A stretch of 64,000 bases of DNA from positions 8,680-72,679 of the forward strand of contig JAJRVD010000053.1 in NCBI GenBank assembly GCA_024277375.1, in the 5' to 3' direction. This document shows, piece after piece, positions 4,180 to 56,306 of this stretch. The notes beneath the pieces are model-generated. The model saw only the letters and a list, made by a program, of their open reading frames with translations. It was not told where the DNA came from and made no database searches. Source of the DNA: Candidatus Omnitrophota bacterium (GTDB lineage Bacteria; Omnitrophota; Gorgyraeia; Tantalellales; Tantalellaceae). Each line of letters starts with the position of its first letter. Within the stretch, counting starts at the first letter, position 1. The position numbers and the translations under genes were made by a program.

Positions 4180-4198
4180 GAGGGCTAAAGGAGTGGTA

Positions 4199-4795: not shown

Positions 4796-4811
4796 GAGGA
4801 AAGTGTTTGCG

Positions 4812-19881: not shown

Positions 19882-19882
19882 G

Positions 19883-20617: not shown

Positions 20618-20707
20618 TGAATTCGCGGAGGAAATTGTCCTCCGGTGTACTGACAACAACTAAAAGTTCTTTGTGATCTCTGTGGTTGAAAAAAAAGGAG
20701 AAGGAAG

Positions 20708-27530: not shown

Positions 27531-27542
27531 TGAGAGGTTGAT

Positions 27543-33271: not shown

Positions 33272-33288
33272 TAAAGGAGTGGGGCATC

Positions 33289-34524: not shown

Positions 34525-34526
34525 GT

Positions 34527-35585: not shown

Positions 35586-35588
35586 ACT

Positions 35589-38214: not shown

Positions 38215-39677
38215 GCGAACGTAAGAAAAATATAATTAAGGATGTGACTGCCTATGGAGTGGGTAGGTACATTGCTCAGTTCGTCGGTTTTTTTATAGCT
38301 GTTTTAATGAGAAATTTTCTCGGCCCGCTGCAAATGGGTATGTGGAGTTTGGTTAAGGTGGTTTTGAGTTATGCCATCTATAGCGAGGTAGGAATAACGC
38401 AGGCGGTATATTATAAGATCCCGCTTCATAACGGAAAAGGTGAACGCGACGAAGCGGAAAACATACAGAACGTGGTTTTTGCTTTTATGATACTCGCGAG
38501 TGTGCTTGCCAGTATTTTGATACTCGCGGCAGCTATCATTTTGAAGGACAAAATGCCGAGGGAGCTGTTTGTGGGGTTTCTGGTCTTTCCGGCGTTCTTT
38601 CTCGCGCAAAGGGTATATTCTTACCATGTAATGCTGTTGCGAGCGAACAAAAAGTTTTTTGTCTTAAGTAAAACGTATATATTCGATAGCCTGTTCAACG
38701 TTTTGCTCGTCCTTGTGGTAGTAGGCAAGTTCAGGTTGTATGGTCTGTACGCCGTAAGTGTTTTATTGCCGGTGCTTGATATCTGTTACATAAGGCGTAA
38801 CGTGAAATATAAGATCAAATGGAAGATCATGTGGGACAAGATCGGCGAGTACATAAAATTCGGGTTTCCCGTATTCGTGTCGGGCATATCAATGTTGATG
38901 CTGTATAGCGTCGACAGGATCATGATAGCGAAAATGATAGGGTTGGTTCCGTTAGGTTATTATTCTATCGCTGTCATGACCAGAACGTATACCGCGGAAC
39001 TTTCTGGAAGTTTCGCGGCGGTTCTGTCTCCTTATTTTATCGAAGACTATGGAAAAACGGGGGACATTTCAAAGACAGGAAAGGCGATAACGACGTATAC
39101 GGAGATCATCTCATGTGCTATGGCTATTATCCTCGGGCTTACATATTTGTCATTCCCCGTTTTTGTGCATTACGCTATGCCTAAGTTCTATCCCGGTGTT
39201 CCAGCTATGAAATTAATGCTTGTATGTACGTTTTTTGTGGTTATCGCGATGCAATTGAGGAATCTGTTGATAATGAAGGATAAGCAGACTACGTTGATGA
39301 AAATATCACTTTTTGCCATTGTGTTGAATGTTTGTGTTAACTATGCCGCTATAAGGTCCGGTTTCGGGATCGCGGGGGTCGCTGGAGCCAGTGTCATATC
39401 GGCATTTTCACTGTTTATACTTGTTGCCGCGAGCGCGATACATCATATCAAAGATGTAAAGCTCATGCCGTTTTTAACATATATAGCTATGCTGTTTATG
39501 TATTTTGTGTTGAGCATTTACGCTATTGAGAACATAGTATCTTTGGAAAATCTTATTTATGGGGCTCTGGCTAAGATATTATTGTTTTTGACGGTAGCGA
39601 TCGGTGCTGTTTATTATGTGAACAAGAGGACAGGTGTTATTAATATTGTGCTGGAAGCCATAAGGAAGAAAAAATGA
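38211..39677 (+). CDS. Wzx-like MOP-superfamily oligosaccharide flippase
   Basis: About 12 TM segments in the size range of polysaccharide biosynthesis proteins. ATGA overlap with the upstream gene. Confidence 0.6.
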   Translation: MSERKKNIIKDVTAYGVGRYIAQFVGFFIAVLMRNFLGPLQMGMWSLVKVVLSYAIYSEVGITQAVYYKIPLHNGKGERDEAENIQNVVFAFMILASVLASILILAAAIILKDKMPRELFVGFLVFPAFFLAQRVYSYHVMLLRANKKFFVLSKTYIFDSLFNVLLVLVVVGKFRLYGLYAVSVLLPVLDICYIRRNVKYKIKWKIMWDKIGEYIKFGFPVFVSGISMLMLYSVDRIMIAKMIGLVPLGYYSIAVMTRTYTAELSGSFAAVLSPYFIEDYGKTGDISKTGKAITTYTEIISCAMAIILGLTYLSFPVFVHYAMPKFYPGVPAMKLMLVCTFFVVIAMQLRNLLIMKDKQTTLMKISLFAIVLNVCVNYAAIRSGFGIAGVAGASVISAFSLFILVAASAIHHIKDVKLMPFLTYIAMLFMYFVLSIYAIENIVSLENLIYGALAKILLFLTVAIGAVYYVNKRTGVINIVLEAIRKKK

Positions 39678-41899
39678 CGGATGATCTACATTTTTTTAAA
39701 GATATACATATATCGAGGACTCAAAAAGGCGCGAGGTTCCTGAATATATTCGCAGACTTTCGTCGGGCGGCAAAAAATAACAGGGTACTGTTCTTTTTGT
39801 TTTTAAGCGCGACTGTTTTTACGTCAATAAGTACAGCGAAATTTCTGGGGGCTCTTTTGGGGACGGTGTTCTCTTTTTCTGATCAGATCATGATCTTTGA
39901 AGTTGTTTTGATGCTATTTTGCCTGGCCTGTTTAAAGGGGGCTGTAAAGATATCATCCAGGTTCAGGTGCAGGATGGATGTGAGCATAAGGGACAGTTGG
40001 TTTTTTCTGTTCGCGTTTAACGTGTATTTTGTTACTTTTTTGCCATTTTTTACGAATGCTCCTGTTCTAGGGTTTCTTGTTTCAAGCTTAGCTGTTGCTG
40101 GTACGTTTTCTGTGCTTTATGTCTTTTACGTTAAGAAAATAGCCGTCAAAAAACAACCGGATCTCGAAATACCCGGTACTGTCAAAGCGGATGATCCGGT
40201 GGACTTTATGGTTTCGGGATCGCATACGCGTGAAAAGGTACAGATAAACGGAGATACTCGAGACGCGTTCCTGATGGATATAGACGGAAAAATTAAAATG
40301 GAACTCCCCCCTGATGCAAAAAAAATAAAATTCGCGATTGGCGTAAGAGAATCGATAAAAAAACCAGCGTATAATGCTGTTATCATAAAGGTGTCAGAGC
40401 TGAACGTGGATGGTGAGGAAAATCTTATATATTCGAAATATTTGGAGACGTCACCCGATAATAATACGCGTTCATGGTCAGAAGTGTCTGCCGATCTTGT
40501 TGGGCAGGATCCGTCGAGATCGCGACATATCGTGGTGAAAGTGGAAGCTTCCGGCAATGGGGCTCCTCTGGACGGGGATGAGCGAAGATATTGTTTTTCC
40601 GGACCGCGTCTTTCGGGGAAAAGTAAACCCAGAAAGGTAATTCTTATTGTGGCTGACGCGGTGAGGTCGGATCATGTCGGGTGCTACGGATATGGTCGTC
40701 CGATAACACCGAATATCGATAGTTTGGCGAAGGACGGTGTCAGTTTTGATACGGCTTTTACTCAAGGGCAATTGACGCTTCCTTCATTCATGTCGATGTT
40801 GACGGGAATGTATCCGACATCGCACCACGTGTATCATAGTCAGCACTACAGTATGCTGGGTGAGGCCACCGCGACATTGCCGGAAATATTGCGCAAAAAC
40901 GGATTTGTGACCAGAAGCTATTTTACTCATAGAAGGTTGATGTCTCATTTTGGTTTCGCGAAAGGATTCGATTCGCATCTTTTCAGGCAGTATGATAAAG
41001 AGTGGAATATCGCTACCGCGGATGATGTAACAAATAAAGCTCTTGATATGTTGGAATTCCACAAAGATGATGATCTTTTCCAGATGATACACTTCTTTGA
41101 TACGCATCAGCCTTGTGACCCGCCGGCACCTTTTTCTGAGGTTTTCGACAAAACATATGGCAGGAAGATCATTAAAGACGTTCGGCATGAGTTGATGAAG
41201 GGTAAGAAAACAGGATTTGATGAAGCGGACCTTAATAACTTGATCGCGAGATATGATACTGAGATATCCCGCGTGGATATGAAAATAGGTATATTAATGG
41301 ATCGCTTGAAGAGGGAAGGGCATTATGAGGACGCGATGATCATAGTTACAGCCGATCATGGTATGTTGTTGAACGATCAAGGGAGTTTGACGGATATGAC
41401 CCTGTTCGACGAGATCGTGAAGGTACCTTTCATTGTTAAATTTCCTGAATCTGCCGAGGTGTCCAAAGGTGTCCCTGTTGAGGACAGTGTTATCGAGGCG
41501 AACATAGATATAATGCCTACGGTACTTGATGTATGTGGCATAGATGTGCCCCCAACCGTTCAGGGTAAAAGTGTTTTTCCTTTAGCGAAGGGGGAGGGAT
41601 CAATGAAGGAGTATGCTATTTCGGAATCATTATTTGATGATATTTATTCGGTATCGCTGAGGGATCAGCGATACCGGTACACTTTTAAGACAGAATTCGA
41701 CATATTGAAGTTCAATAACTATAGGGAGTCGCGTACGGAGGAACATGTTTTTAAAGCAGACGCGAGGATGCCAGAGTCGGATGTGGACCAAAACGAAAAA
41801 GCTACTTTTGTAAATAAGTACAAAACTGTGGTAGAACAGCATATAAAACAGAGTTTGGATATGAACAACAATAGTAAATGGAGGAAAGATGGATTTTAA
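39674..41899 (+). CDS. LtaS/phosphoglycerol- or phosphoethanolamine-transferase-like membrane enzyme (sulfatase fold, Thr nucleophile)
   Basis: Five N-terminal TM segments plus an extracytoplasmic sulfatase-fold domain: VILIVADAVRSDHVGCYGYG ... LTLPSFMSMLTG ... TADHG. Thr replaces the Cys/Ser formylglycine site. Confidence 0.6.
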   Translation: MTDDLHFFKDIHISRTQKGARFLNIFADFRRAAKNNRVLFFLFLSATVFTSISTAKFLGALLGTVFSFSDQIMIFEVVLMLFCLACLKGAVKISSRFRCRMDVSIRDSWFFLFAFNVYFVTFLPFFTNAPVLGFLVSSLAVAGTFSVLYVFYVKKIAVKKQPDLEIPGTVKADDPVDFMVSGSHTREKVQINGDTRDAFLMDIDGKIKMELPPDAKKIKFAIGVRESIKKPAYNAVIIKVSELNVDGEENLIYSKYLETSPDNNTRSWSEVSADLVGQDPSRSRHIVVKVEASGNGAPLDGDERRYCFSGPRLSGKSKPRKVILIVADAVRSDHVGCYGYGRPITPNIDSLAKDGVSFDTAFTQGQLTLPSFMSMLTGMYPTSHHVYHSQHYSMLGEATATLPEILRKNGFVTRSYFTHRRLMSHFGFAKGFDSHLFRQYDKEWNIATADDVTNKALDMLEFHKDDDLFQMIHFFDTHQPCDPPAPFSEVFDKTYGRKIIKDVRHELMKGKKTGFDEADLNNLIARYDTEISRVDMKIGILMDRLKREGHYEDAMIIVTADHGMLLNDQGSLTDMTLFDEIVKVPFIVKFPESAEVSKGVPVEDSVIEANIDIMPTVLDVCGIDVPPTVQGKSVFPLAKGEGSMKEYAISESLFDDIYSVSLRDQRYRYTFKTEFDILKFNNYRESRTEEHVFKADARMPESDVDQNEKATFVNKYKTVVEQHIKQSLDMNNNSKWRKDGF

Positions 41900-42878
41900 G
41901 ATCATAGTGACATTGGGACCCGCTATATTGAATGAAGAAAAACTCGCGGAGATAGCGCAGCATGGTTCTTGTCTGTTTAGGCTCAACGGAGCTCATACGG
42001 ACCCGGAAAATGTAGATAAAGTAGTCGAACTTGTCAGGGGAGTTCTGCCTGAAGCGAAATTCATGCTTGATCTGCCAGGTAATAAGGTCAGACTGAGTGG
42101 TTTGAGTGAGCCGTTGAGATTGGTCAAGGATGAGTATATCGATATCCATGAGTATCAGCTAAACTTTCCGGAATTCTATCGCTATATTAAACCGGGCGAG
42201 ATCGTTCTTGCTCATGATTCTATTTATCGACTGGAAGTCGTGGAAGTAAAAGGTAAGACCATCAGATTTCTTTCGCATTCTGACGGCATACTTTTAAGTC
42301 GAAAGGGTTTACATGTAAAAGGTGTGAGTGATAGTCTGCCGTTTTTGTTCGATAGGGACCTGGCATTGATCAAGAGCGCATGTGAATGTAAGCTGGACTA
42401 TTTAGCGCTTTCTTTTGTTCGGAACGCCGATGATATTCGTTTTGCCAAGGAGATGGTGAGCAAATATAACGCGGACGAGTGTGAACTCATCTCTAAAGTT
42501 GAAACATCCGCCGCTGTTGAAAATCTTGACGAAATTTTAACGGAGATAAACGCAATTTTGATAGATCGAGGCGATCTATCAGCTGACATAGGGATACATA
42601 ATCTTGCGTGTCATCAGGAAAATATAATAAGCGCTGCCAAAAAAGCGGGAAAAAAGATATATCTGGCGACACAATTCCTTAAAAATATGGAAAAACATCC
42701 GCTGCCGTTGATCGCTGAAACGTTGGACTTGCATAAGACACTGAAAGCGGGGATTAGCGGAATACAACTGTCCGAAGAAACAGCTGTGGGAGCGTATCCC
42801 GTCCAATGTGTCGAATATGTGTTTAAAACCCTTGAAGGGATCCGTAACGAGGTTATTCCGGCCGGAGATAAGATATGA
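41889..42878 (+). CDS. Pyruvate-kinase-like barrel-domain protein (A+B domains only; no C-terminal regulatory domain)
   Basis: KIIVTLGPA ... MLDLPGNKVRL ... LISKVETSAAVENLDEILTEINAILIDRGDLSADIG ... IQLSEETAVGAYP parallels PK motifs (TIGPAS / MLDTKGPEIR / ISKIEN ... ARGDLG ... LSGETAKG). Confidence 0.6.
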   Translation: MDFKIIVTLGPAILNEEKLAEIAQHGSCLFRLNGAHTDPENVDKVVELVRGVLPEAKFMLDLPGNKVRLSGLSEPLRLVKDEYIDIHEYQLNFPEFYRYIKPGEIVLAHDSIYRLEVVEVKGKTIRFLSHSDGILLSRKGLHVKGVSDSLPFLFDRDLALIKSACECKLDYLALSFVRNADDIRFAKEMVSKYNADECELISKVETSAAVENLDEILTEINAILIDRGDLSADIGIHNLACHQENIISAAKKAGKKIYLATQFLKNMEKHPLPLIAETLDLHKTLKAGISGIQLSEETAVGAYPVQCVEYVFKTLEGIRNEVIPAGDKI

Positions 42879-43627
42879 GATCCGTTAAAGAGCTGAGAGC
42901 TAAATGTCAGGCGGGCAAGGAAGGATCAGATACGTGGTACGGCCGTTGTTTTGCCAGAAAAATATCGATCTATTTTACGATCGCTTTTATCAAGCTGGGT
43001 ATAAGAGCTAATGTTGTAACCGGGATGTTCCTGCTAAGTGGTATTGTTGCCGCGTGTCTTTTTGCCATTGGCACAAAAGAGAGTATTTTAGCAGGCGCTC
43101 TGATGCTACAATTATGGTATATACTGGATCATTCTGACGGCGAGGTAGCCAGAAATAATAATGAAACATCTTTAACCGGGATTTACTATGATTATATTAT
43201 TCATTACATTGTTCATCCCATGGTATTTTTTGGAATCGGATTTGGTGTTTCTAGAGCAATAGGGAATGTGAACTATTTATTCCTTGGAGTTGCCGGAGCT
43301 TTCGCGATAATGCTTTTAAGTCTCGTTTCAGATCTTAAGGATATGGTTTTGTTTAGAGCTCACATAGCTTATTCCGGAGACGAGGGGGTCAAGGGCAGTG
43401 GTAAGGGCGAAAGGTCCTTTGGCAGAAAGATCTTTTCGGGTGGTCATCTGTTGTGTACCTTTCCGGTAATTATGAATCTGATAACTATTGCCGCTATTGT
43501 TGATTTTGTTTTCAATAAATACGTGATGTTGTATGTTTTAGCGTCTTACGCTGTTTTGATAAATATTGTTTGGATAATGAAGGTTATAGTTTTTATACTG
43601 GGAAAAAAAATGGATCACGAAGGATGA
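42875..43627 (+). CDS. CDP-alcohol phosphatidyltransferase family protein
   Basis: DHSDGEVAR ... G ... D ... D matches D-x2-DG-x2-AR-x8-G-x3-D-x3-D. Polytopic. Confidence 0.7.
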   Translation: MRSVKELRAKCQAGKEGSDTWYGRCFARKISIYFTIAFIKLGIRANVVTGMFLLSGIVAACLFAIGTKESILAGALMLQLWYILDHSDGEVARNNNETSLTGIYYDYIIHYIVHPMVFFGIGFGVSRAIGNVNYLFLGVAGAFAIMLLSLVSDLKDMVLFRAHIAYSGDEGVKGSGKGERSFGRKIFSGGHLLCTFPVIMNLITIAAIVDFVFNKYVMLYVLASYAVLINIVWIMKVIVFILGKKMDHEG

Positions 43628-44424
43628 TCCTTAGAAAAGGAGTTGATGTGAAGGCCATAATTATAGCGGCAGGTAGAGGCAAAAGGATGAAGCGTTTGAC
43701 GGATGATATCCCGAAATGTCTTCTGGATTTTAATGGCAGGAAGTTGTTGGATATTCAACTTGCCGCGTTGAGGCATAACGGGATAGAGGACATATCCATA
43801 GTAGTGGGGTATAAGAAAGAAAAGATCAAATATCCGGAATTGAAATATTATGTAAATGACAGGTATGAACACAATAATATTCTACATTCGTTATTATACG
43901 CGGAAAATGAGATGAATGACGGGTTTATAGCGAGTTATTCGGATATTATCTACGATAAAACCGTTATTAGAAAGCTATGTGAAAGTAAAGCTGATATATC
44001 GATCGTAGTTGATACCGATTGGAGGGGGTATTACGATGGAAGGGTTGGCCACCCTGTAGAAGAGGCCGAAAACGTTGTTTTTGATCCTGAAGGCCGGGTT
44101 CTTAACATAGGTAAGATATTGCCTGACAAGGATGCCGCGCATGGTGAATTTTTAGGCATATTTAAATGCACAAAAAAAGGTGCCCTTATATTTAAGGAGC
44201 ATTTTAACAGCTTAAAGGAAAAATTTGCTGGTAAAACTTTTCAAAGGGCAAAGGTGTTCGAAGAAGCGTATGTGACGGATATGGTACAGGATCTGGTCGA
44301 TTCCGGGATACCTGTACATTGTGTTAAGATCGAAGGCGGCTGGAAGGAAATTGATACCATCGATGATTATGAAAAAGCGGTAATTGATCTTTCAAAGGAA
44401 GAACAAAAGGCGCAGTTCGCATGA
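43624..44424 (+). CDS. LicC/PntC-like nucleotidyltransferase (phospho-alcohol or phosphonate cytidylyltransferase). Alternative GTG start 43648.
   Basis: KAIIIAAGRGKRM NTP-transferase G-loop. Size (~260 aa) and architecture resemble LicC. Confidence 0.6.
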   Translation: MILRKGVDVKAIIIAAGRGKRMKRLTDDIPKCLLDFNGRKLLDIQLAALRHNGIEDISIVVGYKKEKIKYPELKYYVNDRYEHNNILHSLLYAENEMNDGFIASYSDIIYDKTVIRKLCESKADISIVVDTDWRGYYDGRVGHPVEEAENVVFDPEGRVLNIGKILPDKDAAHGEFLGIFKCTKKGALIFKEHFNSLKEKFAGKTFQRAKVFEEAYVTDMVQDLVDSGIPVHCVKIEGGWKEIDTIDDYEKAVIDLSKEEQKAQFA

Positions 44425-45296
44425 TAACGAAGTTAAGCTTCATACTGATTATTGTCTCGGGCCTGATCCATCCTTTATGGAATATGCTTTTAAAAAGAAG
44501 CCGGGATAAGGTGATATTTTATTTGAATATACACCTCATTTTTACGGTACTGTTCAGCTTTGTTCTGTTCAAGTACCCGGTAAAGGATATAACGCTTTTA
44601 GGTTGGGGGTTTGTGCTTTTGTCGGCTTTTGCGCACTTTTTTTATCAGATGTTCTTGTGCCGTACGTATGAACTGGGGGATATGTCCTTGACGTATCCTA
44701 TTGTGAGATCTTCTCCGGTATTTGTTCTTTTAATGGGGGTAATGTTTTTAAGAGAAATGCCTTCGAAGACGGCTCTTTTAGGAGTTTGTATTGTTGTTCT
44801 CGGGGTTCATGTTATAAATCAGAAACAGTTATCCCTAGTTGGGCTTTTGTCGAGATGGGGCCATATGGATAAAAAGGTAATAGCGGTCGCGTGCCTGACA
44901 GCTATCGCGTCCGCGTGTTATTCGATAATTGATAAGAGGGGTGTTTTATTGATAGATCCCGTACTGTTCTTTTATCTCTTTTTTTCTGTTAGCGGTTTTA
45001 TGTTTTTGGGATATTTATTGACTCTTAAGGATCGAAGGAAAAAGTATTTTGAGATACTGCGAAAGGATAAGTTTAAGATCGTTCTGGCGGCTATTTTAGA
45101 GTTTTCGTCATATGTTTTAATACTGTACGCGTTCCGCATTTCAAAAGTCGCGTATGTAGTCGCGCTTCGGCAGATAAGTGTAGTGTTCGGGGTTTTATAT
45201 GGCAGTTTGTTCTTAAAGGAGAACTATGGTAGGGTAAGATTTGCGGGTGCGGTAACAATATTTATCGGAATATTTTTAATAACCGCGTTTGGATGA
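44421..45296 (+). CDS. EamA/DMT-family transporter (LicB-like)
   Basis: Ten predicted TM segments and two EamA-like halves. Confidence 0.6.
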   Translation: MITKLSFILIIVSGLIHPLWNMLLKRSRDKVIFYLNIHLIFTVLFSFVLFKYPVKDITLLGWGFVLLSAFAHFFYQMFLCRTYELGDMSLTYPIVRSSPVFVLLMGVMFLREMPSKTALLGVCIVVLGVHVINQKQLSLVGLLSRWGHMDKKVIAVACLTAIASACYSIIDKRGVLLIDPVLFFYLFFSVSGFMFLGYLLTLKDRRKKYFEILRKDKFKIVLAAILEFSSYVLILYAFRISKVAYVVALRQISVVFGVLYGSLFLKENYGRVRFAGAVTIFIGIFLITAFG

Positions 45297-45325
45297 TTGG
45301 ATAAAATAAAAGGGAGGAACTATCG

Positions 45326-46528
45326 ATGAGTAAGAAAAATGAAGAAAATTTGGTTTTATATCCGGGGATGGCAGGGCTTACGAGGGATATGATAGATCGC
45401 ATGAAAGCGGATGGGTCGGAGCTGCTCTCAGTTGATATTATGTTGACCCAAAAATGCAATTTTAAGTGTATTTATTGTTATGCCGAAGCCGGTCCGCAAA
45501 GGGTTCATCAACTTACCATGACCGAGGCAAAGAGTATAGTTAACGATGCTGTGGATATGGGCGTGAAGATACTGAACATGCAGGGAGGTGAACCCTTGAT
45601 ATGGCATCCCGACGATTGGGAAGGAAAGGGTGGCGAAGCTTTTTTTCATATAGTTGAGTATATAAGAGATCTGTACGCGGAAAGAAAACTTCCGCTTGAC
45701 CTGGTTAGCTTTACTGATGTCGCGATCATCACCGAAGAGAAAGCCAAACGGCTCGTTAAATTGGGTGTGGCTTTGTGTTGCAAACTCGATTCGATCGAGG
45801 AGGAAGTACAGGATAAATTGTTGGGGGTTCCTGGTGGCGCTAAAAAAATGAGGGATGGGTATCAACATTTGATAAACGCGGGGTATGGCCGGGACGATAT
45901 GCCGGCGATCTCAACGAATACGGTCGTTACTACTTTGAATTATGATGGAGTTCCCGAGGTTTTCAGATGGTCCAGAAATCATAATTTTCGACCGTTCATA
46001 ATTCCGGTACATGTTCACGGAACGGCCCAGGAGAACGCTTCTATGATGTTGTGTGGTAAACCGTCAGGTGGTACTCTGGATGCCGGGGACATTAAAAAAC
46101 TATTTGAAAATCTTGCCGAGATAGACGGAAAAGAATTTGATATTCATTGGAAGGCGGAAACCCCGTGGGTAGAGAACAAGGCATGTTCCAGGCATTTAGG
46201 AGGTGTTCACGTAAGGGCGGACGGGAAAGTAATACCATGTTCGGAAGCTCCGGACCAGTGGGCGCTTGGAGATATCAGAAAGGAATCTTTCAAGGATATA
46301 GTGATGTCGGAGAAGGTGAAAAAATTCAGAAATATTTATTCGGAATTACATGATCATTCGAAATGTTCTCCTGTAAATTGTCCGGCAGCAAAAGAAGGAA
46401 GATGTTATGGTTGTCGAACTCGGGCGTATGATGATTCAGGATTTGATGCTGATGGTAATTTTGACGTTGCACGGTTAGATCCGGAAGCGTTTTTCGCCGG
46501 AGATCCGGCATGTTGGAGGGAAGCCTAA
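45326..46528 (+). CDS. Radical SAM protein with C-terminal SPASM/twitch-like Cys-rich domain
   Basis: CNFKCIYC (Cx3Cx2C) near the N-terminus. C-terminal CSPVNCPAAKEGRCYGCRTRAY cysteine cluster. Confidence 0.7.
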   Translation: MSKKNEENLVLYPGMAGLTRDMIDRMKADGSELLSVDIMLTQKCNFKCIYCYAEAGPQRVHQLTMTEAKSIVNDAVDMGVKILNMQGGEPLIWHPDDWEGKGGEAFFHIVEYIRDLYAERKLPLDLVSFTDVAIITEEKAKRLVKLGVALCCKLDSIEEEVQDKLLGVPGGAKKMRDGYQHLINAGYGRDDMPAISTNTVVTTLNYDGVPEVFRWSRNHNFRPFIIPVHVHGTAQENASMMLCGKPSGGTLDAGDIKKLFENLAEIDGKEFDIHWKAETPWVENKACSRHLGGVHVRADGKVIPCSEAPDQWALGDIRKESFKDIVMSEKVKKFRNIYSELHDHSKCSPVNCPAAKEGRCYGCRTRAYDDSGFDADGNFDVARLDPEAFFAGDPACWREA

Positions 46529-46603
46529 CGGGTAGCAGGTTTTAGGTGAAAGGTTTATGGGGCGCGGAATAAAGAACCCGGAGTACTCTCCGGCTTCTTC
46601 TAA

Positions 46604-46640
46604 CGTAGGAGCGGCCTCTGGCCGCGAAGGATTTTGTTCA
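46604..46640 (+). terminator. GC hairpin (GCGGCC-TCT-GGCCGC) followed by GGATTTTGTT; a copy of short repeat family C
   Basis: A second hairpin, CCGGAG-TACT-CTCCGG, sits at 46577..46594. Both lie downstream of the radical SAM-SPASM gene. Confidence 0.4.
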
Positions 46641-46714
46641 TATCAATTATTCATAGATGCAGGGATGACATAGGTTGCGGAATATGATATCACACAAAAA
46701 AAATGAGGTAAAAA

Positions 46715-48337
46715 ATGAAAAAAAGAGCAAAATTACGAAGTTTTATAGAAAAAGGTGAACTCTTCAAGATAGTGGGAGCTCATAACGGTTTAACGGCCAA
46801 GTTGGTGGCCGAAGCCGGGTTTGACGGGGTTTGGGCATCAGGTTTTGAGATATCAAGCTCACATGCGGTTCCGGACGCTAATATTCTCACTATGACGGAT
46901 TATTTGAACGCCTCCGCTGAAATGGCATCGACGGTATCGATCCCCGTGATCTCGGATTGTGATACCGGTTACGGGAACTCGAATAATGTCATACATATGG
47001 TCCAGAAATATGAGGCTGCCGGTATCGCGGCTGTCTGTATTGAGGATAAAAAATTCCCGAAAGTAAATAGTTTTATCCCCGGACGCCAGGAACTGGCGCC
47101 AATAGCGGAATTTGTCGGGAAAATAATGGCGGCTAAGAACGCGCGGGTTACAAAAGATTTTATGGTTTTTGCCAGGGTGGAAGCTTTGATCGCCGGATGG
47201 GGGATGGATGAGGCTTTAAGGAGAGCGGAAGCGTATGTGGATGCCGGTGCCGACGGGATATTTATCCATTCGAAGTCGAAAACTTCGGATGAAATAACCG
47301 CTTTTTGTGAGGTATGGAACAAAAGAGCGCCGATCCTGATCTGTCCTACGACGTATCCGATCAGTGAGGATGAGATGAAAAATCTGGGCGTAAGTATTGT
47401 CATTTACGCGAATCATGGGCTCCGGGCGGCGATAAAACATATGGGTGAAATTTTACGACACATTAAGGAGAACGGTCTTAGCGGCGTCGATTCCAAAATT
47501 GTTTCTATGGCGGAAGTCTTCCGCCTTCAGGGCATGCATGTCATGAAACAACAGGAAAAGAAATACCTGAAGACGGAGGGAGGATCCGTTAAGGCAATAA
47601 TACCCGCTGCCGGGGCTAAGATGGACAGCTCTTTTAAAGAGATACTGGAGGATAGGCCTGTAGGAATGCTTGATATAAACGGAAAATTATTATTTCAGAG
47701 GAATATTGAAACGTTAAATTCCGCGGGGGTGCAGGATATCAATATAATTGTCGGGTATGGCGGGGATAAGGTCTCTCTTGAAGGTGTTAATATTATTAAA
47801 AATGAGGATTTTCAGAAAAAAGGAATTATGCAGTCCATCATCAAAGGTATGGATTCCATATCCGATAAAAATGTGATACTATACTCCGATATTATTCTGG
47901 ACCAGGGTCTTTTAGAAAGACTCCTTAAAAAGGAAGGAGATATAATTCTTGTTGTGGATAGCACTTACAGAAAGACGCAATCCCGGAACAAAGAACTTGA
48001 ACTGGTCATGGCTGAGTATTCTTCACATGACAACCGTCGTACTATTGATGTGAACAGAAAGAACTTAGTGCGGAAAACCGGGAAAAACCTTTCTGAAGAA
48101 GACGCAAATTTTGAGTTTATCGGCACGGCTCTTTTATCAAAAAAGGGCATGGAACTTTTGGTTAAAGAATATGAAAACGCGAAATTTCCCGAGCCGCTTT
48201 CTTTTACGGATCTTATCCAGCACTTAGTAGGTGCCGGACATGAAGTTCTTGCTTATGAAGTGACTAGCGGATGGATGGAGATACATAATTTTTCTGACTA
48301 TAAAAAAGCATGTTCAATATTTTGCGGGGGGAAATGA
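46715..48337 (+). CDS. Phosphoenolpyruvate mutase fused to a C-terminal nucleotidyltransferase domain
   Basis: The N-terminal ~290 aa match PEP mutase blocks (LRSFIEKGELFKIVGAHNGLTAKL ... VISDCDTGYGN ... AAVCIEDKKFPKVNSF). The C-terminal ~250 aa have the AIIPAAGAKMDSSFKEILEDRPVGMLDING NTP-transferase fold. Confidence 0.8.
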   Translation: MKKRAKLRSFIEKGELFKIVGAHNGLTAKLVAEAGFDGVWASGFEISSSHAVPDANILTMTDYLNASAEMASTVSIPVISDCDTGYGNSNNVIHMVQKYEAAGIAAVCIEDKKFPKVNSFIPGRQELAPIAEFVGKIMAAKNARVTKDFMVFARVEALIAGWGMDEALRRAEAYVDAGADGIFIHSKSKTSDEITAFCEVWNKRAPILICPTTYPISEDEMKNLGVSIVIYANHGLRAAIKHMGEILRHIKENGLSGVDSKIVSMAEVFRLQGMHVMKQQEKKYLKTEGGSVKAIIPAAGAKMDSSFKEILEDRPVGMLDINGKLLFQRNIETLNSAGVQDINIIVGYGGDKVSLEGVNIIKNEDFQKKGIMQSIIKGMDSISDKNVILYSDIILDQGLLERLLKKEGDIILVVDSTYRKTQSRNKELELVMAEYSSHDNRRTIDVNRKNLVRKTGKNLSEEDANFEFIGTALLSKKGMELLVKEYENAKFPEPLSFTDLIQHLVGAGHEVLAYEVTSGWMEIHNFSDYKKACSIFCGGK

Positions 48338-49452
48338 TACAGGCAGGAAATCTAATAAGTGAGTTTGATAAATACGGATTTGGGCCATATATCGAGGTTC
48401 CTTGCAGTATCCTGGGACCGATAATCGCGAATCTTATTAATAAAAGACCCGAAGAGCTGATAAATCCGACTAATGAAGCGATCGCGATGGGTATAGCCAG
48501 TGGATCTTTTATGGCTACGGGTAAAATTCCGGTTGTACTTATGCAAAATTCAGGTTTGTGTAACGCGTTGAACTCTATCACTTCTTTGAATCAAATATAC
48601 GATATTCCCATTCTGATGATGATCTCGTGGAGGGGAGAACCCGGAGCGAAAGACGCGCCTGAACATCTTGTTGTCGGAGAGCGGATGAAACAACTGCTCG
48701 AAGTGTTTGATATCCCATATGTTGTTTTGTCTGAAGACCGATTGAAGGAAGACATTGTTCGGTTAGCTGAAATAGTTGAGGAACAAAAGCGTCCAGTGGC
48801 GTTGATCATACGGCACGGGCTTTTTGAAAAAGAAGACATAGTTCTTCCGGATAGCCCGCATACCATGTATAGGGATGAGGCCATCAATATTATTATTGAC
48901 GCCGGGATCGGAAAATCCTTTTTTGTTACGACCAACGGGTTTATAAGTAGAGAGGCTTTTAATGACCTTACCGGTAAGGGAGAGGAAGATAAAAACCCCC
49001 TTTTTTATATGTTAGGATCAATGGGGCACGCTCTGCCCGTGGGGATGGGATTAGCCAGAGGTATAAACGCGGATAAAAAGATCATCGTTTTAGACGGAGA
49101 CGGGGGATGTCTTATGCATTCGGGAGCTATGGCTTCGGTTAATGATGGGAACTGCAAAAATCTCGTTCATATTGTTTTAGATAATTCCGTTTACGGGTCT
49201 ACGGGGGGGCAACCCACCATTTCGGGGAAAATAGATTTTAAAAAGATCGCTTCAGGGTGTGGATATAAGAACGTATTTCGATTTAATGATCCTGAGAAAA
49301 TGAAAGGCGAACTTCCGAGGATACTTGACGAAGATGGCCCGACATTCGTACACGTACGTGTAAATAGTGTTTCACGTGAAGCCGGACCGAGGATATCCAC
49401 AAAATATTCGTGTAAAGACATCAAAGAAAGATTTATGGAAAAATTAAAGTAA
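48334..49452 (+). CDS. Phosphonopyruvate decarboxylase (ThDP-dependent)
   Basis: ThDP-binding GSMGHALPVGMGLA ... LDGDGGCLMH motif. ATGA overlap with the PEP mutase gene. Confidence 0.75.
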   Translation: MIQAGNLISEFDKYGFGPYIEVPCSILGPIIANLINKRPEELINPTNEAIAMGIASGSFMATGKIPVVLMQNSGLCNALNSITSLNQIYDIPILMMISWRGEPGAKDAPEHLVVGERMKQLLEVFDIPYVVLSEDRLKEDIVRLAEIVEEQKRPVALIIRHGLFEKEDIVLPDSPHTMYRDEAINIIIDAGIGKSFFVTTNGFISREAFNDLTGKGEEDKNPLFYMLGSMGHALPVGMGLARGINADKKIIVLDGDGGCLMHSGAMASVNDGNCKNLVHIVLDNSVYGSTGGQPTISGKIDFKKIASGCGYKNVFRFNDPEKMKGELPRILDEDGPTFVHVRVNSVSREAGPRISTKYSCKDIKERFMEKLK

Positions 49453-49453
49453 T

Positions 49454-50566
49454 ATGAAGTACCGTCATAAACTGGTATCCATAGTTATTGCGTTGGTAAT
49501 ATCGGTATCCGTTACCGAAGTCGGGCTGAGGATGCTTCGGTTAGTTCCGCATGAAGGATATCCTGACGGTATGTATCAAAAAGACGAGCTGCTGGGATAT
49601 AGCTTGACGCCTAATTTTGAGGGGAAGTTGATAAAACATGAATTCGCAACGAAGTTCCGGACAAATTCGATCGGGATGAACGATGTAGAATACGGGCAAA
49701 AAAATGAAGATGATTATAGGGTATTAGCTTTGGGAGCGTCTTTTGCCTGGGGAGCATACGGGGCCGGGTTGAACGAGACATTTTTAAAAAAACTGGAGCA
49801 GAAACTTAATACGGAACATAACAATACGAATTATCAGGTCATGAACGCGGGTGTGCCGGGGTACGCGCTCGATAGGCAGTTGTTATGGTTAAAGAACAGG
49901 GGTCTGGCATTCAAACCGGATATGCTTTTGGTCACGGTTTACGCGGGAAATGTTTTTCACGAGGCGGCTATTAAACGTGCGGTAACGGTTGACGAAAGGG
50001 GACAACTGGTTTCACAAAAACATATCATCAAAGGTGGTTTTGCCTTTTTTGTAAAGATAAGAGATTTTTTCATTAAACATTCTCATTTCTACAGAATGGC
50101 AGAAAATAAATGCGCTAATCTTTTGAGTAGATTTGTTGAGAGAGAGTTTCTTGGGAAAATGCAGAATTGGGATAAAGGTAAGAATAACGTATTTATGATC
50201 CGTTCCTCGGATATGGTGACGGGAGAGATAAATACGGCATTAGATATGCTGGGAGAGATAAATGACATCGCTAAAGAAAATAAGTTACCGATCTTTGTAG
50301 TGATAATACCATCTAAATATCAGGTGGATGATTACTTTAAAGAGCTTTTCATTAAAGACAACGGCATGTTTGCGGGAACTTACGACATGGAAAAACCGCA
50401 AAAAATACTAGCGAAATGGGGTAAAGAGAACGGAGTTGAGATAATCGATCCGATCAGGGAATTCAGAGACAAAAATCAGGGAGGGGGGCTTTATTGGAGA
50501 ATAAATCCCCATTTGAATAAAAGGGGAAATGAGATCCTTTCCGGAACGATCTTTGGGTCGATATAA
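49454..50566 (+). CDS. SGNH/GDSL-like hydrolase-fold protein with N-terminal TM (AlgX/AlgJ/DltD-like)
   Basis: N-terminal TM. LALGASFAWG (block I Ser) and a C-terminal NPHLN (D/H-like block). Weak call. Confidence 0.4.
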   Translation: MKYRHKLVSIVIALVISVSVTEVGLRMLRLVPHEGYPDGMYQKDELLGYSLTPNFEGKLIKHEFATKFRTNSIGMNDVEYGQKNEDDYRVLALGASFAWGAYGAGLNETFLKKLEQKLNTEHNNTNYQVMNAGVPGYALDRQLLWLKNRGLAFKPDMLLVTVYAGNVFHEAAIKRAVTVDERGQLVSQKHIIKGGFAFFVKIRDFFIKHSHFYRMAENKCANLLSRFVEREFLGKMQNWDKGKNNVFMIRSSDMVTGEINTALDMLGEINDIAKENKLPIFVVIIPSKYQVDDYFKELFIKDNGMFAGTYDMEKPQKILAKWGKENGVEIIDPIREFRDKNQGGGLYWRINPHLNKRGNEILSGTIFGSI

Positions 50567-56292: not shown

Positions 56293-56306
56293 GGGAGAGA
56301 GGAACG

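What the first reader, a model, noticed from the sequence alone, without database searches (positions are those of the whole stretch)
41889..49452. Phosphonate / phospho-headgroup module with a radical SAM-SPASM enzyme where an AEP transaminase would be expected
The set is: PK-like protein, CDP-alcohol phosphotransferase, LicC/PntC-like nucleotidyltransferase, DMT (LicB-like) transporter, radical SAM-SPASM, PEP mutase-nucleotidyltransferase fusion and phosphonopyruvate decarboxylase. The PEP mutase, decarboxylase and cytidylyltransferase give phosphonoacetaldehyde and a CMP-activated phosphonate. The two CDP-alcohol phosphotransferases (42875 and 51598) could then transfer it to a lipid or glycan. 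No PhnW-type AEP transaminase or HEP dehydrogenase is present. The only extra redox enzyme is the radical SAM-SPASM protein. That raises the possibility of a non-standard phosphonate head group (modified beyond 2-AEP or 2-HEP) on a cell-surface glycan.
Basis: partly seen in the sequence, partly recalled or inferred. Interest (0 to 1): 0.7.

Follow-up and report, generated by a model that had tools for sequence, protein, structure and literature searches.

The report
Phosphonate cassette with orphan radical SAM
This cell-surface sugar locus holds a carbon-phosphorus (phosphonate) pathway in which the usual third enzyme is missing and an uncharacterised radical SAM enzyme, found only beside such pathways in several mostly anaerobic phyla, sits in its place, which suggests a still unknown phosphonate head group.

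Summary
PEP mutase has the EDKKFPKVNS motif and is fused to a PF12804 nucleotidyltransferase. Phosphonopyruvate decarboxylase scores above its curated cut-off. There is also a LicC-like nucleotidyltransferase, an EamA/DMT membrane protein, two CDP-alcohol phosphotransferases and a 400-aa radical SAM-SPASM protein.

No AEP transaminase or Fe-alcohol dehydrogenase lies anywhere in the 64 kb.

The radical SAM belongs to a tight, unnamed family (57-76% identity) found in MAGs labelled Omnitrophota, Planctomycetes, Chloroflexi, Deltaproteobacteria and Thermoplasmatota. All 10 distinct loci with at least 5 kb on both sides carry Ppm and Ppd within 8 kb, usually in the order NTP-EamA-rSAM-Ppm::NTP-Ppd. 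Only one element also has a transaminase. Three sister Ppm::NTP cassettes (53-54% identical) have Aminotran_5 or Fe-ADH directly after Ppd and no gene of this radical SAM family.

The radical SAM therefore looks like an uncharacterised pathway-specific enzyme. Its reaction is unknown.

- The PK-like gene belongs with a neighbouring PAPS/sulfation module.
- The 'sulfatase' has a Thr nucleophile, so the radical SAM is not a sulfatase maturase.
- The module extends downstream to about 57005.

Verdict: a new variant of a known kind, of moderately high interest.

The parts
42875..43627 (+). CDP-alcohol phosphotransferase, variant subfamily. The motif is D..DG..AR-x8-G-xxx-D-xxx-H, with His in place of the last Asp. 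Candidate transferase of the CMP-activated phosphonate to a lipid or glycan alcohol.
   Evidence: PF01066 1.6e-6. The His variant is shared by orthologues in L001 and L014, and the gene is syntenic in L001 and L014.
43570..44424 (+). Free-standing LicC/PntC-like nucleotidyltransferase (PF12804). The probable true start is ATG 43624.
   Evidence: Pfam and NCBIfam. Best solved relatives are LicC 1jyk (6.5e-17) and PntC 6pd1 (2.9e-8). ATGA overlap at 43624-43627. Immediately upstream of EamA-rSAM in most related loci.
44421..45296 (+). EamA/DMT 10-TM membrane protein, the conserved partner of the radical SAM. Its cargo is unknown.
   Evidence: PF00892 2.4e-25. TIGR03340 phn_DUF6 gives 138 bits over the full length, below its cut-off. 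Directly upstream of the radical SAM in 27 of 47 loci; the rest are short contigs or a subclade with a DUF2061 membrane protein instead.
45326..46528 (+). Radical SAM-SPASM enzyme of an uncharacterised family associated with Ppm-Ppd. It is the pathway-specific step.
46715..48337 (+). PEP mutase (residues 1 to about 290) fused to a PF12804 nucleotidyltransferase (about 291-540).
   Evidence: PF13714 2e-59 plus PF12804. Solved Ppm 5unc 1e-96, against CPEP mutase 2e-32 and methylisocitrate lyase 8e-32. Motif EDKKFPKVNS, against EDKTFPKDTS in phosphonopyruvate hydrolase. This fusion type makes up about 33% of all Ppm (PMC6697681).
48310..49452 (+). Phosphonopyruvate decarboxylase (TPP-dependent). 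The probable start is ATG 48334, translationally coupled to Ppm.
   Evidence: TIGR03297 328 bits, above the cut-off of 312.5. ATGA overlap. Adjacent to Ppm in related loci.
49454..50566 (+). Membrane-anchored 370-aa protein with a weak SGNH/GDSL-like match. It is specific to this window, is probably a glycan acyl-esterase or acyltransferase, and is not a transaminase or dehydrogenase.
   Evidence: Only PF13472 at 8e-4, below its cut-off, and no NCBIfam hit. No orthologue in the related loci.
50617..51576 (+). GT2 polyprenyl-phosphate glycosyltransferase (ArnC/AglJ-like).
   Evidence: PF00535 1e-21; AglJ, PgfS and ArnC-type NCBIfam hits below their cut-offs. Syntenic in L001 and L014.
51598..52287 (+). 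Second CDP-alcohol phosphotransferase, with the canonical D..DG..AR-x8-G-xxx-D-xxx-D motif.
   Evidence: PF01066 2.9e-14. Motif check. Syntenic in L001 and L014.
52274..53824 (+). GT-C (PMT_2/ArnT-like) membrane glycosyltransferase.
   Evidence: PF13231 and PF02366. Syntenic in L001 and L014.
53844..54791 (+). Flippase-like membrane protein (LPG_synthase_TM / TIGR00374).
   Evidence: PF03706 2.7e-25. TIGR00374 40.5 bits, just below its cut-off. Syntenic in L001 and L014.
54802..56292 (+). B12-binding (class B) radical SAM of unassigned function. It could be a methyltransferase acting on the head group or on the glycan.
   Evidence: PF02310 plus PF04055. HpnJ 160 bits and PhpK family 134 bits, all far below their cut-offs. 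The same protein cluster occurs in 12 of 47 related loci.
56289..57005 (+). Class I SAM-dependent methyltransferase.
   Evidence: Several Methyltransf_* Pfam families. 59% identical orthologue at the same position in L001.
39674..41899 (+). Membrane protein with an alkaline-phosphatase-superfamily ('sulfatase') domain and a Thr nucleophile (TLPSF). It is probably a phospho-, phosphono- or sulfo-ester transferase or hydrolase acting outside the cytoplasm. It may belong to the neighbouring sulfation module rather than to the phosphonate cassette.
   Evidence: PF00884 1.7e-43. Thr sits in place of the Cys/Ser-x-P-x-R motif in this and all related copies. Homologous to the sulfatase-family gene of PK/PAPS modules. 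It also lies directly after the radical SAM in L015, L030 and L042.
41889..42878 (+). Short pyruvate-kinase-like protein (A and B domains only). It lies next to the phosphonate cassette but is not part of it, and belongs with PAPS/sulfation modules.
   Evidence: PF00224 1e-52, with NCBIfam PK models below their cut-offs. The K/E/D/T catalytic motifs align with solved PK. The family occurs as APS kinase - ATP sulfurylase - PK - sulfatase - Wzx, and as APS kinase::PK fusions. Absent from all 47 radical SAM loci.

Best explanation
Window 42875-49452, with accessory genes to about 57005, encodes a phosphonate 'tailoring' pathway for a cell-surface glycoconjugate.

Shown by homology: PEP mutase converts PEP to phosphonopyruvate. 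The translationally coupled decarboxylase makes phosphonoacetaldehyde (PnAA). LicC/PntC-type nucleotidyltransferases, one fused to Ppm and one free, make a CMP-phosphonate.

Inferred from gene context: the step that normally fixes the head group is PnAA to 2-AEP by a class V transaminase, or PnAA to 2-HEP by an Fe-alcohol dehydrogenase. Here it is replaced by a two-gene unit, an EamA membrane protein plus a radical SAM-SPASM enzyme. This enzyme family is dedicated to Ppm-Ppd cassettes. I propose it is a new early branch-point enzyme. It would abstract a hydrogen atom from PnAA, its hydrate or its CMP conjugate through the 5'-deoxyadenosyl radical, and would use the SPASM auxiliary clusters to complete the reaction. 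The product would be a head group other than AEP or HEP. An anSME/BtrN-like two-electron oxidation towards a phosphonoacetyl-type group is the simplest case. C-C cleavage to a C1 phosphonate is an alternative.

Inferred from conserved synteny: the CMP-activated product is passed by the CDP-alcohol phosphotransferases to a lipid or lipid-linked sugar. In other lineages LicD does this step. The GT2 / flippase-like / GT-C trio then delivers it to an extracytoplasmic glycan.

The reaction and the product have not been determined.
For: Identity of the pathway enzymes:
- Ppm carries EDKKFPKVNS and matches solved Ppm 5unc at 1e-96.
- Ppd scores above the curated TIGR03297 cut-off.
- The free NTP's closest solved relatives are LicC and PntC.

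Radical SAM family:
- 81 homologues at 57-76% identity carry no functional name.
- It forms a single full-length 50%-identity cluster, with a gap from 769 to 283 bits to the next relative.
- No NCBIfam model comes near its cut-off, for it or for its nearest outgroups.

Linkage to Ppm-Ppd:
- The order NTP-EamA-rSAM-Ppm::NTP-Ppd recurs in MAGs labelled Omnitrophota, Deltaproteobacteria, Chloroflexi/Dehalococcoidia and Planctomycetes. A variant order occurs in a Thermoplasmatota MAG.
- 10 of 10 distinct loci with at least 5 kb on both sides have Ppm and Ppd within 8 kb. So do 24 of 27 with at least 3 kb on one side, and the 3 exceptions are cut short on the relevant side.
- In L002 the cassette is only EamA-rSAM-Ppm::NTP-Ppd among unrelated genes.
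- Every full-length partner Ppm has EDKxxxxxNS: 26 of 27, and the exception is cut by a contig end.
- Pairwise identities of the radical SAM and its partner Ppm correlate (r = 0.84, Mantel 0 of 2000). The radical SAM stays at least 54% identical where the Ppm falls to 36% and the cytidylyltransferase fold changes from PF12804 to PF01467.

Absence of the known branch enzymes:
- None appears in Pfam scans of the window.
- tblastn with 3 AEP transaminases and 1 Fe-ADH against the window and 539 kb of radical SAM loci hits only L003/L039, two copies of the same element.

Control:
- Sister Ppm::NTP fusions, 53-54% identical, sit in Ppm::NTP-Ppd-Fe-ADH (L058) or Ppm::NTP-Ppd-Aminotran_5 (L059, L060), with no SPASM radical SAM.

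Downstream logic:
- CDP-OH, GT2, GT-C and flippase-like genes are syntenic in the window, L001 and L014. Other loci use LicD. NUDIX and cytidylate kinase genes occur in L012 and L013.

Fold:

Literature:
- Li & Horsman 2022 list Ppm-Ppd neighbourhoods without any of the seven known branch enzymes as unexplored. One is a Campylobacter family flanked by a radical SAM and adenylsulfate kinase (PMC8942020).
- No paper describing this enzyme was found.
Against: - No biochemical or structural evidence bears on the substrate. The fold match is generic to SPASM enzymes: RiPP maturases score nearly as high as anSME.
- The transaminase or reductase could be encoded elsewhere in these genomes. All are MAGs, and whole genomes could not be searched.
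- One element (L003/L039) has both the radical SAM and an AEP transaminase. The two are therefore not strictly exclusive, and the radical SAM could act after AEP or HEP formation.
- NAD-dependent enzymes already perform PnAA oxidation in other organisms, so a costly radical SAM for the same reaction is not obviously needed.
- The model has pLDDT of only 76, with low confidence around the cluster-binding loops.
- Residue-level arguments about head-group specificity of the nucleotidyltransferases turned out to be uninformative.
Confidence: 0.55

Rival explanations
1. This is an ordinary AEP or HEP pathway plus late tailoring. PnAA is converted to AEP or HEP by an unlinked housekeeping transaminase or alcohol dehydrogenase. 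The fused nucleotidyltransferase makes CMP-AEP or CMP-HEP. The SPASM radical SAM then modifies the CMP-bound head group, as Fom3 acts on CMP-HEP in fosfomycin biosynthesis.
For: A radical SAM acting on a cytidylylated phosphonate has a precedent, and so do CyTase::Ppm fusions (Fom1; PMC6697681). One element (L003/L039) carries both an AEP transaminase and the radical SAM. A nucleotidyltransferase accompanies Ppm, Ppd and the radical SAM in every locus with enough flank.
Against: In three sampled sister cassettes with 53-54% identical Ppm::NTP, the transaminase or dehydrogenase is encoded directly after Ppd. Its systematic absence from about 35 distinct radical SAM loci, including all but one of the ten 20-kb loci, is therefore notable. 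The sister elements L038 and L041 have the same architecture as L003 but no transaminase. The enzyme lacks the B12 domain of Fom3-type methylases.
Confidence: 0.27
2. The radical SAM-SPASM protein is a protein or peptide maturase that only travels with the cassette. It might be an anaerobic sulfatase-maturing enzyme for the neighbouring sulfatase-family protein, or a RiPP maturase.
For: The top structural match is anSME, and the next matches are RiPP maturases. A sulfatase-family gene lies 3.4 kb upstream, and similar genes occur in several related loci.
Against: The sulfatase-family proteins here and in related modules have Thr where the Cys/Ser-x-Pro-x-Arg formylglycine motif should be. Most radical SAM loci, including the minimal L002, have no sulfatase gene. 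The anSME model TIGR03942 is not among the 25 best of 52 NCBIfam matches, and those 25 score at most 71 bits. No conserved small ORF accompanies the gene: it abuts Ppm by 3 nt in L001, and the 187-nt gap in the window is not conserved. Linkage is to Ppm-Ppd in 10 of 10 fully flanked loci.
Confidence: 0.08
3. The cassette is for salvage or catabolism rather than biosynthesis. EamA imports an environmental phosphonate, the mutase homologue works as a phosphonopyruvate hydrolase or in reverse, and the radical SAM takes part in breakdown.
For: The EamA protein resembles TIGR03340, a family annotated as associated with phosphonate utilisation. The mutase scores almost equally on the Ppm and phosphonopyruvate hydrolase NCBIfam models, both below their cut-offs.
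Against: The mutase has the Ppm-specific Asn (EDKKFPKVNS), whereas the solved hydrolase has EDKTFPKDTS. It is fused to a nucleotidyltransferase and coupled to Ppd, as in biosynthetic clusters (PMC6697681). The surroundings are glycan-assembly genes: CDP-OH, LicD, GT2, GT-C and Wzx. No PhnX, PhnA, PhnZ or C-P lyase gene was seen.
Confidence: 0.03

Closest known systems
Phosphonyl tailoring (Pnt) pathway for 2-AEP: Ppm(::PntC) - Ppd - AEP transaminase - CMP-AEP (Rice et al. 2019, PMC6697681)
   Same: Ppm with EDKxxxxxNS is fused to a PF12804 nucleotidyltransferase. Ppd is adjacent, a second LicC/PntC-like nucleotidyltransferase is present, and transferases for a cell-surface target lie downstream. 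Sister cassettes 53-54% identical in Ppm::NTP are of exactly this type (L059, L060).
   Different: There is no class V aminotransferase in the window or in nearly all related loci. An EamA plus radical SAM-SPASM pair is present instead.
Fosfomycin pathway of Streptomyces: Fom1 (CyTase::Ppm), Fom2, FomC, Fom3 (radical SAM acting on CMP-HEP)
   Same: A cytidylyltransferase is fused to Ppm, and a radical SAM enzyme lies inside a Ppm-Ppd cluster. This is a precedent for radical chemistry on a CMP-bound phosphonate. The L003-type relatives even use the Fom1-type PF01467 domain.
   Different: Fom3 is a B12-dependent class B methylase that needs FomC (Fe-ADH) upstream. The enzyme here has a SPASM domain and no B12 domain, there is no Fe-ADH, and the context is glycan decoration rather than an antibiotic cluster.
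SPASM/Twitch radical SAM dehydrogenases anSME and BtrN
   Different: Identity is only 19%. No formylglycine-type target exists here, and the family is linked to Ppm-Ppd. Membership of the anSME family was tested and not met.
Unclassified 'post-Ppd other' ppm neighbourhoods, including Campylobacter GCF 385 with radical SAM and adenylsulfate kinase (Li & Horsman 2022, PMC8942020)
   Same: A Ppm-Ppd core lacks all seven known branch-point enzymes and has a radical SAM nearby. APS kinase genes also recur next to the cassette in the related loci L008, L028, L029 and L032.
   Different: That report gives only Pfam-level labels from complete RefSeq genomes. Whether its radical SAM is the same family could not be tested here. 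The present family comes from uncultivated lineages.
lic operon for phosphocholine decoration (LicA kinase, LicB DMT permease, LicC cytidylyltransferase, LicD transferase)
   Same: A LicC-like nucleotidyltransferase sits next to a DMT-superfamily membrane protein. LicD transferases occur in the archaeal or mobile-element versions of the cassette.
   Different: There is no LicA kinase. The head group is made de novo from PEP. The EamA protein has no detectable sequence match to any solved transporter, LicB included.

Membership tests
PEP mutase (Ppm) within the isocitrate lyase/PEP mutase superfamily | Catalytic motif EDKxxxxxNS | tested here: met
   The window has EDKKFPKVNS. Solved Ppm 5unc has EDKRFPKVNS and 1m1b has EDKLFPKTNS. 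Phosphonopyruvate hydrolase 2dua has EDKTFPKDTS. 26 of 27 partner Ppm in related loci have the motif.
PEP mutase (Ppm) within the isocitrate lyase/PEP mutase superfamily | Groups with Ppm rather than methylisocitrate lyase or carboxyPEP mutase | tested here: met
   Ppm 5unc gives 328 bits, against CPEP mutase at 116 and methylisocitrate lyase at 114 bits. NCBIfam TIGR02320 gives 310 bits, just under its cut-off of 319.6.
Phosphonopyruvate decarboxylase (Ppd) | Score above the curated equivalog cut-off, and adjacency to Ppm | tested here: met
   TIGR03297 gives 328.1 bits against a cut-off of 312.5. The start codon overlaps the Ppm stop.
2-AEP biosynthetic pathway | Class V AEP transaminase (PhnW/AEPT) in the cluster | tested here: not met
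   No Aminotran_5 protein appears in the window. tblastn with three AEPT queries finds nothing in the window. The rest of the genome could not be tested.
2-HEP-derived pathways (HEP, methylphosphonate, fosfomycin, phosphinothricin) | Group III Fe-dependent alcohol dehydrogenase acting on PnAA | tested here: not met
   No Fe-ADH domain appears in the window. tblastn with the L058 Fe-ADH finds nothing in the window or in any radical SAM locus.
Radical SAM superfamily, SPASM subgroup | CX3CX2C cluster motif plus a C-terminal SPASM domain with cysteines for auxiliary clusters | tested here: met
   C44-x3-C48-x2-C51. PF04055 3e-13 and PF13186 5.9e-11. Invariant C287, C305, C347, C352, C360, C363 and C396. 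The fold matches SPASM enzymes. Cluster content was not measured.
Anaerobic sulfatase-maturing enzyme (anSME) | A partner sulfatase with a Cys/Ser-x-Pro/Ala-x-Arg motif, and a score on the anSME model | tested here: not met
   The neighbouring sulfatase-family protein has TLPSF, and all related copies have Thr. Most loci have no sulfatase gene. TIGR03942 is not among the 25 best NCBIfam matches, which score at most 71 bits.
Class B (cobalamin-dependent) radical SAM methyltransferases of phosphonate pathways (Fom3, PhpK) | N-terminal B12-binding domain | tested here: not met
   45326-46528 has no PF02310 match. The separate gene 54802-56292 has the domain but scores 134 bits on the PhpK-family model, against a cut-off of 600.
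PntC/LicC cytidylyltransferases | PF12804 fold with closest similarity to LicC or PntC | tested here: met
   The free NTP matches LicC at 6.5e-17 and PntC at 2.9e-8. The fused domain matches LicC at 1.9e-4 and PntC at 7e-4.
PntC/LicC cytidylyltransferases | Substrate specificity for AEP or phosphocholine | tested here: inconclusive
   The position of PntC Glu104 is Tyr in all cassette NTPs. It is also Tyr or Phe in sister fusions from AEPT and Fe-ADH clusters, so the residue says nothing about the head group.
CDP-alcohol phosphotransferases | Motif D-x2-D-G-x2-A-R-x8-G-x3-D-x3-D | tested here: met
   51598-52287 has the complete motif. 42875-43627 has His in place of the last Asp, a variant conserved in the L001 and L014 orthologues.
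Pyruvate kinase | Full-length enzyme with the C-terminal domain, and a score above the curated cut-offs | tested here: not met
   The protein has 329 aa covering the barrel and B domains only. TIGR01064 gives 234 bits against 306. The catalytic K/E/D/T motifs align. Its context is PAPS modules.

The most novel reading that the evidence does not exclude
The radical SAM-SPASM enzyme is an oxygen-independent branch-point enzyme. It would turn phosphonoacetaldehyde into a head group that known anaerobic chemistry does not provide. One possibility is a C1 phosphonate, such as methylphosphonate or hydroxymethylphosphonate, formed by radical C-C cleavage. That would be the anaerobic counterpart of MpnS or HEPD. 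Another possibility is a phosphonoacetyl-type group. Either way, the product would then be displayed on the cell surface of widespread anaerobes (MAGs labelled Omnitrophota, Dehalococcoidia, Deltaproteobacteria, Planctomycetes and Thermoplasmatota).
Probability: 0.12. Interest if true: 0.9.

Novelty: new variant of a known kind. Interest (0 to 1): 0.68.

Why it matters
Seven enzymes are recognised as early branch points of phosphonate biosynthesis, and all are hydride-transfer, aminotransfer or C-C bond-forming enzymes (PMC8942020). A radical SAM enzyme that is strictly tied to Ppm-Ppd and takes the place of the transaminase or dehydrogenase would be an eighth kind, with different chemistry. 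It would also point to an undescribed C-P head group on the surfaces of abundant uncultivated anaerobes.

That bears on how phosphonates are produced in anoxic sediments and groundwater. It also adds an enzyme family to radical SAM chemistry.

The cassette is small, four genes in L002, so the question can be tested directly by heterologous expression. The analysis also separates a neighbouring and probably unrelated module (short pyruvate kinase, Thr-type 'sulfatase', PAPS synthesis), which deserves its own look.

Tried and rejected
- **anSME hypothesis.** I considered that the radical SAM matures the neighbouring sulfatase. Rejected: the nucleophile is Thr, not Cys/Ser-x-P-x-R, in this and seven related sulfatase-family proteins, and most loci lack a sulfatase gene.
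- **Head-group inference from the nucleotidyltransferases.** The residue at the PntC Glu104 position is invariably Tyr. Sister fusions in AEPT and Fe-ADH clusters also have Tyr or Phe there, so the argument was dropped.
- **PK-like protein as part of the phosphonate pathway** (PEP supply). Rejected on context.
- **The 183-aa L014 protein as a PK remnant.** Not supported (E = 0.48).
- **Looking up the window's own contig.** The protein is not on record and the cluster look-up gave no names, so the organism is unidentified. The nearest relatives are MAGs labelled Planctomycetia and Omnitrophota.
- **Rfam scan of the window.** No match.
- **Promoter and terminator scan.** Counts were no higher than in shuffled sequence. 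The 187-nt gap before Ppm holds only a weak hairpin.
- **IMG/VR scan for the radical SAM.** No relatives.
- **AlphaFold-database fold library.** Not available.
- **Sequence search of solved structures with EamA.** No hit.
- **NCBIfam scan of the ten nearest outgroup radical SAMs.** None reached a cut-off, so no function could be borrowed.
- **Seven literature searches.** None found a description of a SPASM radical SAM in phosphonate biosynthesis. Subscription journals are not covered.

Full report
**Observation.** Almost every sizeable ORF of the window lies on the + strand.

Pfam and NCBIfam confirm the assignments.
- 41889-42878 is a pyruvate-kinase barrel without the C-terminal domain.
- 42875-43627 and 51598-52287 are CDP-alcohol phosphotransferases.
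- 43570-44424 is a PF12804 nucleotidyltransferase. Its best solved relatives are LicC (6.5e-17) and PntC (2.9e-8).
- 44421-45296 is an EamA/DMT protein. It aligns over its full length to TIGR03340, a 'phosphonate utilization associated' family, but scores below the cut-off.
- 45326-46528 is a radical SAM with a SPASM domain.
- 46715-48337 is a PEP mutase fused to a second PF12804 domain.
- 48310-49452 is phosphonopyruvate decarboxylase, above the curated cut-off (328 against 312.5 bits).

Two starts are probably later than the mechanical ORF calls. These are ATG 43624 and ATG 48334. Each overlaps the preceding stop codon as ATGA, which indicates translational coupling.

**The mutase is a true Ppm.** Its motif is EDKKFPKVNS. 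The alignment to solved structures shows EDKRFPKVNS and EDKLFPKTNS in two PEP mutases but EDKTFPKDTS in phosphonopyruvate hydrolase. Carboxy-PEP mutase and methylisocitrate lyase score about 115 bits against 328 for Ppm. Rice et al. 2019 use this motif to define Ppm. They report that about 33% of all Ppm are fused to PF12804 (PMC6697681), so the fusion itself is ordinary.

**No known branch enzyme in the window.** I scanned 58 of the window's 60 ORFs of at least 150 aa against Pfam; the two left out are nested minus-strand ORFs. The only aminotransferases are two DegT-type sugar aminotransferases, at 7524 and 26478. There is no class V aminotransferase and no Fe-alcohol dehydrogenase. tblastn with three AEP transaminases and one Fe-ADH taken from related clusters found nothing in the window. 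The gene directly after Ppd (49454-50566) is a membrane-anchored protein with a weak SGNH-like match, not a redox or PLP enzyme.

**The radical SAM family.** A search of 5.8 billion proteins gave 81 relatives at 57-76% identity, and none carries a functional name. In an exhaustive profile search of 1.84 billion 50%-identity representatives, the family collapses to one full-length representative (769 bits). The next protein scores 283 bits. Neither the family nor its ten nearest outgroups reach any NCBIfam cut-off.

The alignment shows the invariant CX3CX2C motif, a CC pair at 151-152, seven further invariant cysteines after residue 280, and family-specific motifs (LFPGMAG, PVHVHG, CYGCRTRAYD).

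**Gene context elsewhere.** I collected 47 loci that encode the family. Their MAGs are labelled Omnitrophota, Deltaproteobacteria, Chloroflexi/Dehalococcoidia, Planctomycetes and Thermoplasmatota.
- The recurrent order is NTP-EamA-rSAM-Ppm::NTP-Ppd.
- In one MAG labelled Deltaproteobacteria the cassette is only EamA-rSAM-Ppm::NTP-Ppd, among housekeeping genes.
- All 10 distinct loci with at least 5 kb on both sides carry Ppm and Ppd within 8 kb. So do 24 of 27 with at least 3 kb on one side, and the three exceptions are cut short on the relevant side.
- Every full-length partner Ppm has the EDKxxxxxNS motif.
- A second version of the cassette uses Fom1-type PF01467 cytidylyltransferases, LicD transferases and a split Ppd. 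It often has a DUF2061 membrane protein in place of EamA. Its radical SAM is still 57% identical or more.
- Pairwise identities of the radical SAM and its partner Ppm correlate (r = 0.84; Mantel 0 of 2000). The radical SAM is the more conserved of the two, at 54% or more against 36% or more.
- Only one element, L003/L039, has an AEP transaminase. Its sister elements L038 and L041 have the same architecture without one. No locus has an Fe-ADH.

**Control.** Ppm::NTP fusions 53-54% identical to the window's were looked up in their own contigs.
- L058 reads sulfatase-family / Ppm::NTP / Ppd / Fe-ADH / NTP.
- L059 reads Ppm::NTP / Ppd / Aminotran_5 / two B12-radical SAMs / NTP / CDP-OH.
- L060 reads sulfatase-family / NTP / Ppm::NTP / Ppd / Aminotran_5.

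In this clade, then, the branch-point enzyme is normally encoded directly after Ppd. In the radical SAM cassettes that gene is missing, and EamA plus the SPASM enzyme are present. This is the strongest argument that the radical SAM supplies the pathway-specific step.

**What it probably does.** PEP to phosphonopyruvate to phosphonoacetaldehyde, followed by CMP activation, follows from homology to characterised enzymes. The radical SAM step is inferred. The simplest chemistry for a SPASM enzyme of this fold is hydrogen abstraction followed by electron transfer to the auxiliary clusters, as in anSME and BtrN. On the aldehyde hydrate this would give a phosphonoacetyl-type group. An acyl radical could instead lose CO and give a C1 phosphonate. 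Action on a CMP-bound AEP or HEP made with the help of an unlinked enzyme, as Fom3 does, is the main rival. I cannot discriminate among these computationally.

Downstream, the two CDP-alcohol phosphotransferases, the GT2 (ArnC/AglJ-like), the GT-C and the flippase-like protein are syntenic in the window, L001 and L014. One phosphotransferase is canonical. The other has the last Asp replaced by His, a variant conserved in its orthologues. This fits transfer of the head group to a lipid or lipid-linked sugar, followed by delivery outside the membrane. Other lineages use LicD. NUDIX and cytidylate kinase genes in L012 and L013 fit CMP turnover.

The PK-like protein is unique to this window among the 47 loci. 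Its own family is large, about 320 aa per member. In three independent contexts it sits in APS kinase - ATP sulfurylase - PK - sulfatase-family - Wzx modules without Ppm. Two members are fused to APS kinase.

The window has ATP sulfurylase and APS kinase at 3004-4795. It has Wzx, a sulfatase-family protein and PK at 38202-42878, and that sulfatase-family protein is homologous to the one in L055. The PK-like gene therefore belongs with a PAPS/sulfation module that happens to abut the phosphonate cassette.

The 'sulfatase' proteins of both module types have Thr at the nucleophile position. They cannot need formylglycine, which rules out the anSME reading of the radical SAM. APS kinase genes next to the radical SAM in L008, L028, L029 and L032 may simply reflect the same pairing of two anionic decorations. 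Li & Horsman also noted a radical SAM and adenylsulfate kinase beside ppm-ppd in Campylobacter (PMC8942020).

**Comparison with what is known.** The cassette works like the Pnt/AEP and HEP tailoring pathways up to PnAA, and in CMP activation. It fails their defining feature, the transaminase or dehydrogenase. It resembles fosfomycin biosynthesis in having a radical SAM within a CyTase-Ppm cluster. However, the enzyme is of a different class: SPASM, with no B12 domain. Ppm-Ppd neighbourhoods without any known branch enzyme are acknowledged in the literature as unexplored (PMC8942020). I found no description of this enzyme family in seven full-text searches. That absence is weak evidence, because subscription journals are not covered.

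**Verdict.** This is a new variant of a known kind of system. The product and the reaction remain unknown, and all carriers found so far are uncultivated. Interest is 0.68.

Noticed in passing
window 38202-42878 and 3004-4795; L054, L055, L057: A recurrent module: APS kinase, ATP sulfurylase, a short (about 320 aa) pyruvate-kinase-like protein, a sulfatase-family membrane protein with a Thr nucleophile, and a Wzx flippase. In two proteins (P0088, P0089) the PK is fused to APS kinase. This suggests a dedicated ATP-regenerating partner for PAPS synthesis in glycan sulfation.
   Followed up: partly
window 39674-41899, 4803-6242; L014, L015, L055, L057, L058, L060: All 'sulfatase'-family proteins next to these phosphonate or sulfation modules have Thr instead of the Cys/Ser-x-Pro-x-Arg formylglycine motif. 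They are probably phospho- or sulfo-ester transferases or hydrolases of the alkaline phosphatase superfamily rather than classical sulfatases.
   Followed up: partly
window 25449-36320: A complete-looking nonulosonic acid (legionaminic or pseudaminic-type) pathway. It has NeuB, a DegT aminotransferase, a PglD-like acetyltransferase, a formyltransferase, a PIG-L deacetylase, a hydrolysing 2-epimerase, a HisH/HisF-like amidotransferase pair, a CBS-nucleotidyltransferase and a CMP-sugar synthetase.
   Followed up: no
window 17128-21391: A CotH-kinase/beta-helix protein (917 aa) is followed by a VTC-domain protein and a DUF4956 membrane protein, a trio suggestive of polyphosphate-related surface chemistry. 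An MBOAT lies at 21972-22928, and a B12-radical SAM lies on the minus strand at 22938-24998.
   Followed up: no
L003, L038, L041 (metagenome contigs of 44-135 kb): A version of the radical SAM cassette with PF01467 cytidylyltransferases, a split Ppd, LicD and B12-radical SAMs lies next to RFC-like AAA+ and PD-(D/E)XK/Cas4-like genes and many unannotated ORFs. This suggests a mobile element or virus. No relative was found in IMG/VR.
   Followed up: partly
L025 15750-17318; L055 4479-5396: A second, different radical SAM-SPASM type is linked to sulfate activation. In L025 it is fused to an APS kinase domain. In L055 it is a 305-aa protein beside GFO_IDH, APS kinase, ATP sulfurylase and the short PK.
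   Followed up: no
window 42875-43627; L001 13922-14731; L014 11696-12532: A conserved CDP-alcohol phosphotransferase subfamily in which the last Asp of the catalytic motif is His (D..DG..AR-x8-G-xxx-D-xxx-H).
   Followed up: partly
L016, L033, L036, L037, L040, L041, L046: In cassettes without EamA, a 142-aa DUF2061 membrane protein follows the radical SAM directly. This suggests that some small membrane partner is a regular part of the unit.
   Followed up: partly
window 46529-46714: A 187-nt gap between the radical SAM and Ppm is the only sizeable gap inside the cassette. It holds a short GC hairpin at 46578-46593. The gap is absent in L001, where the genes are 3 nt apart. No Rfam match.
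   Followed up: partly
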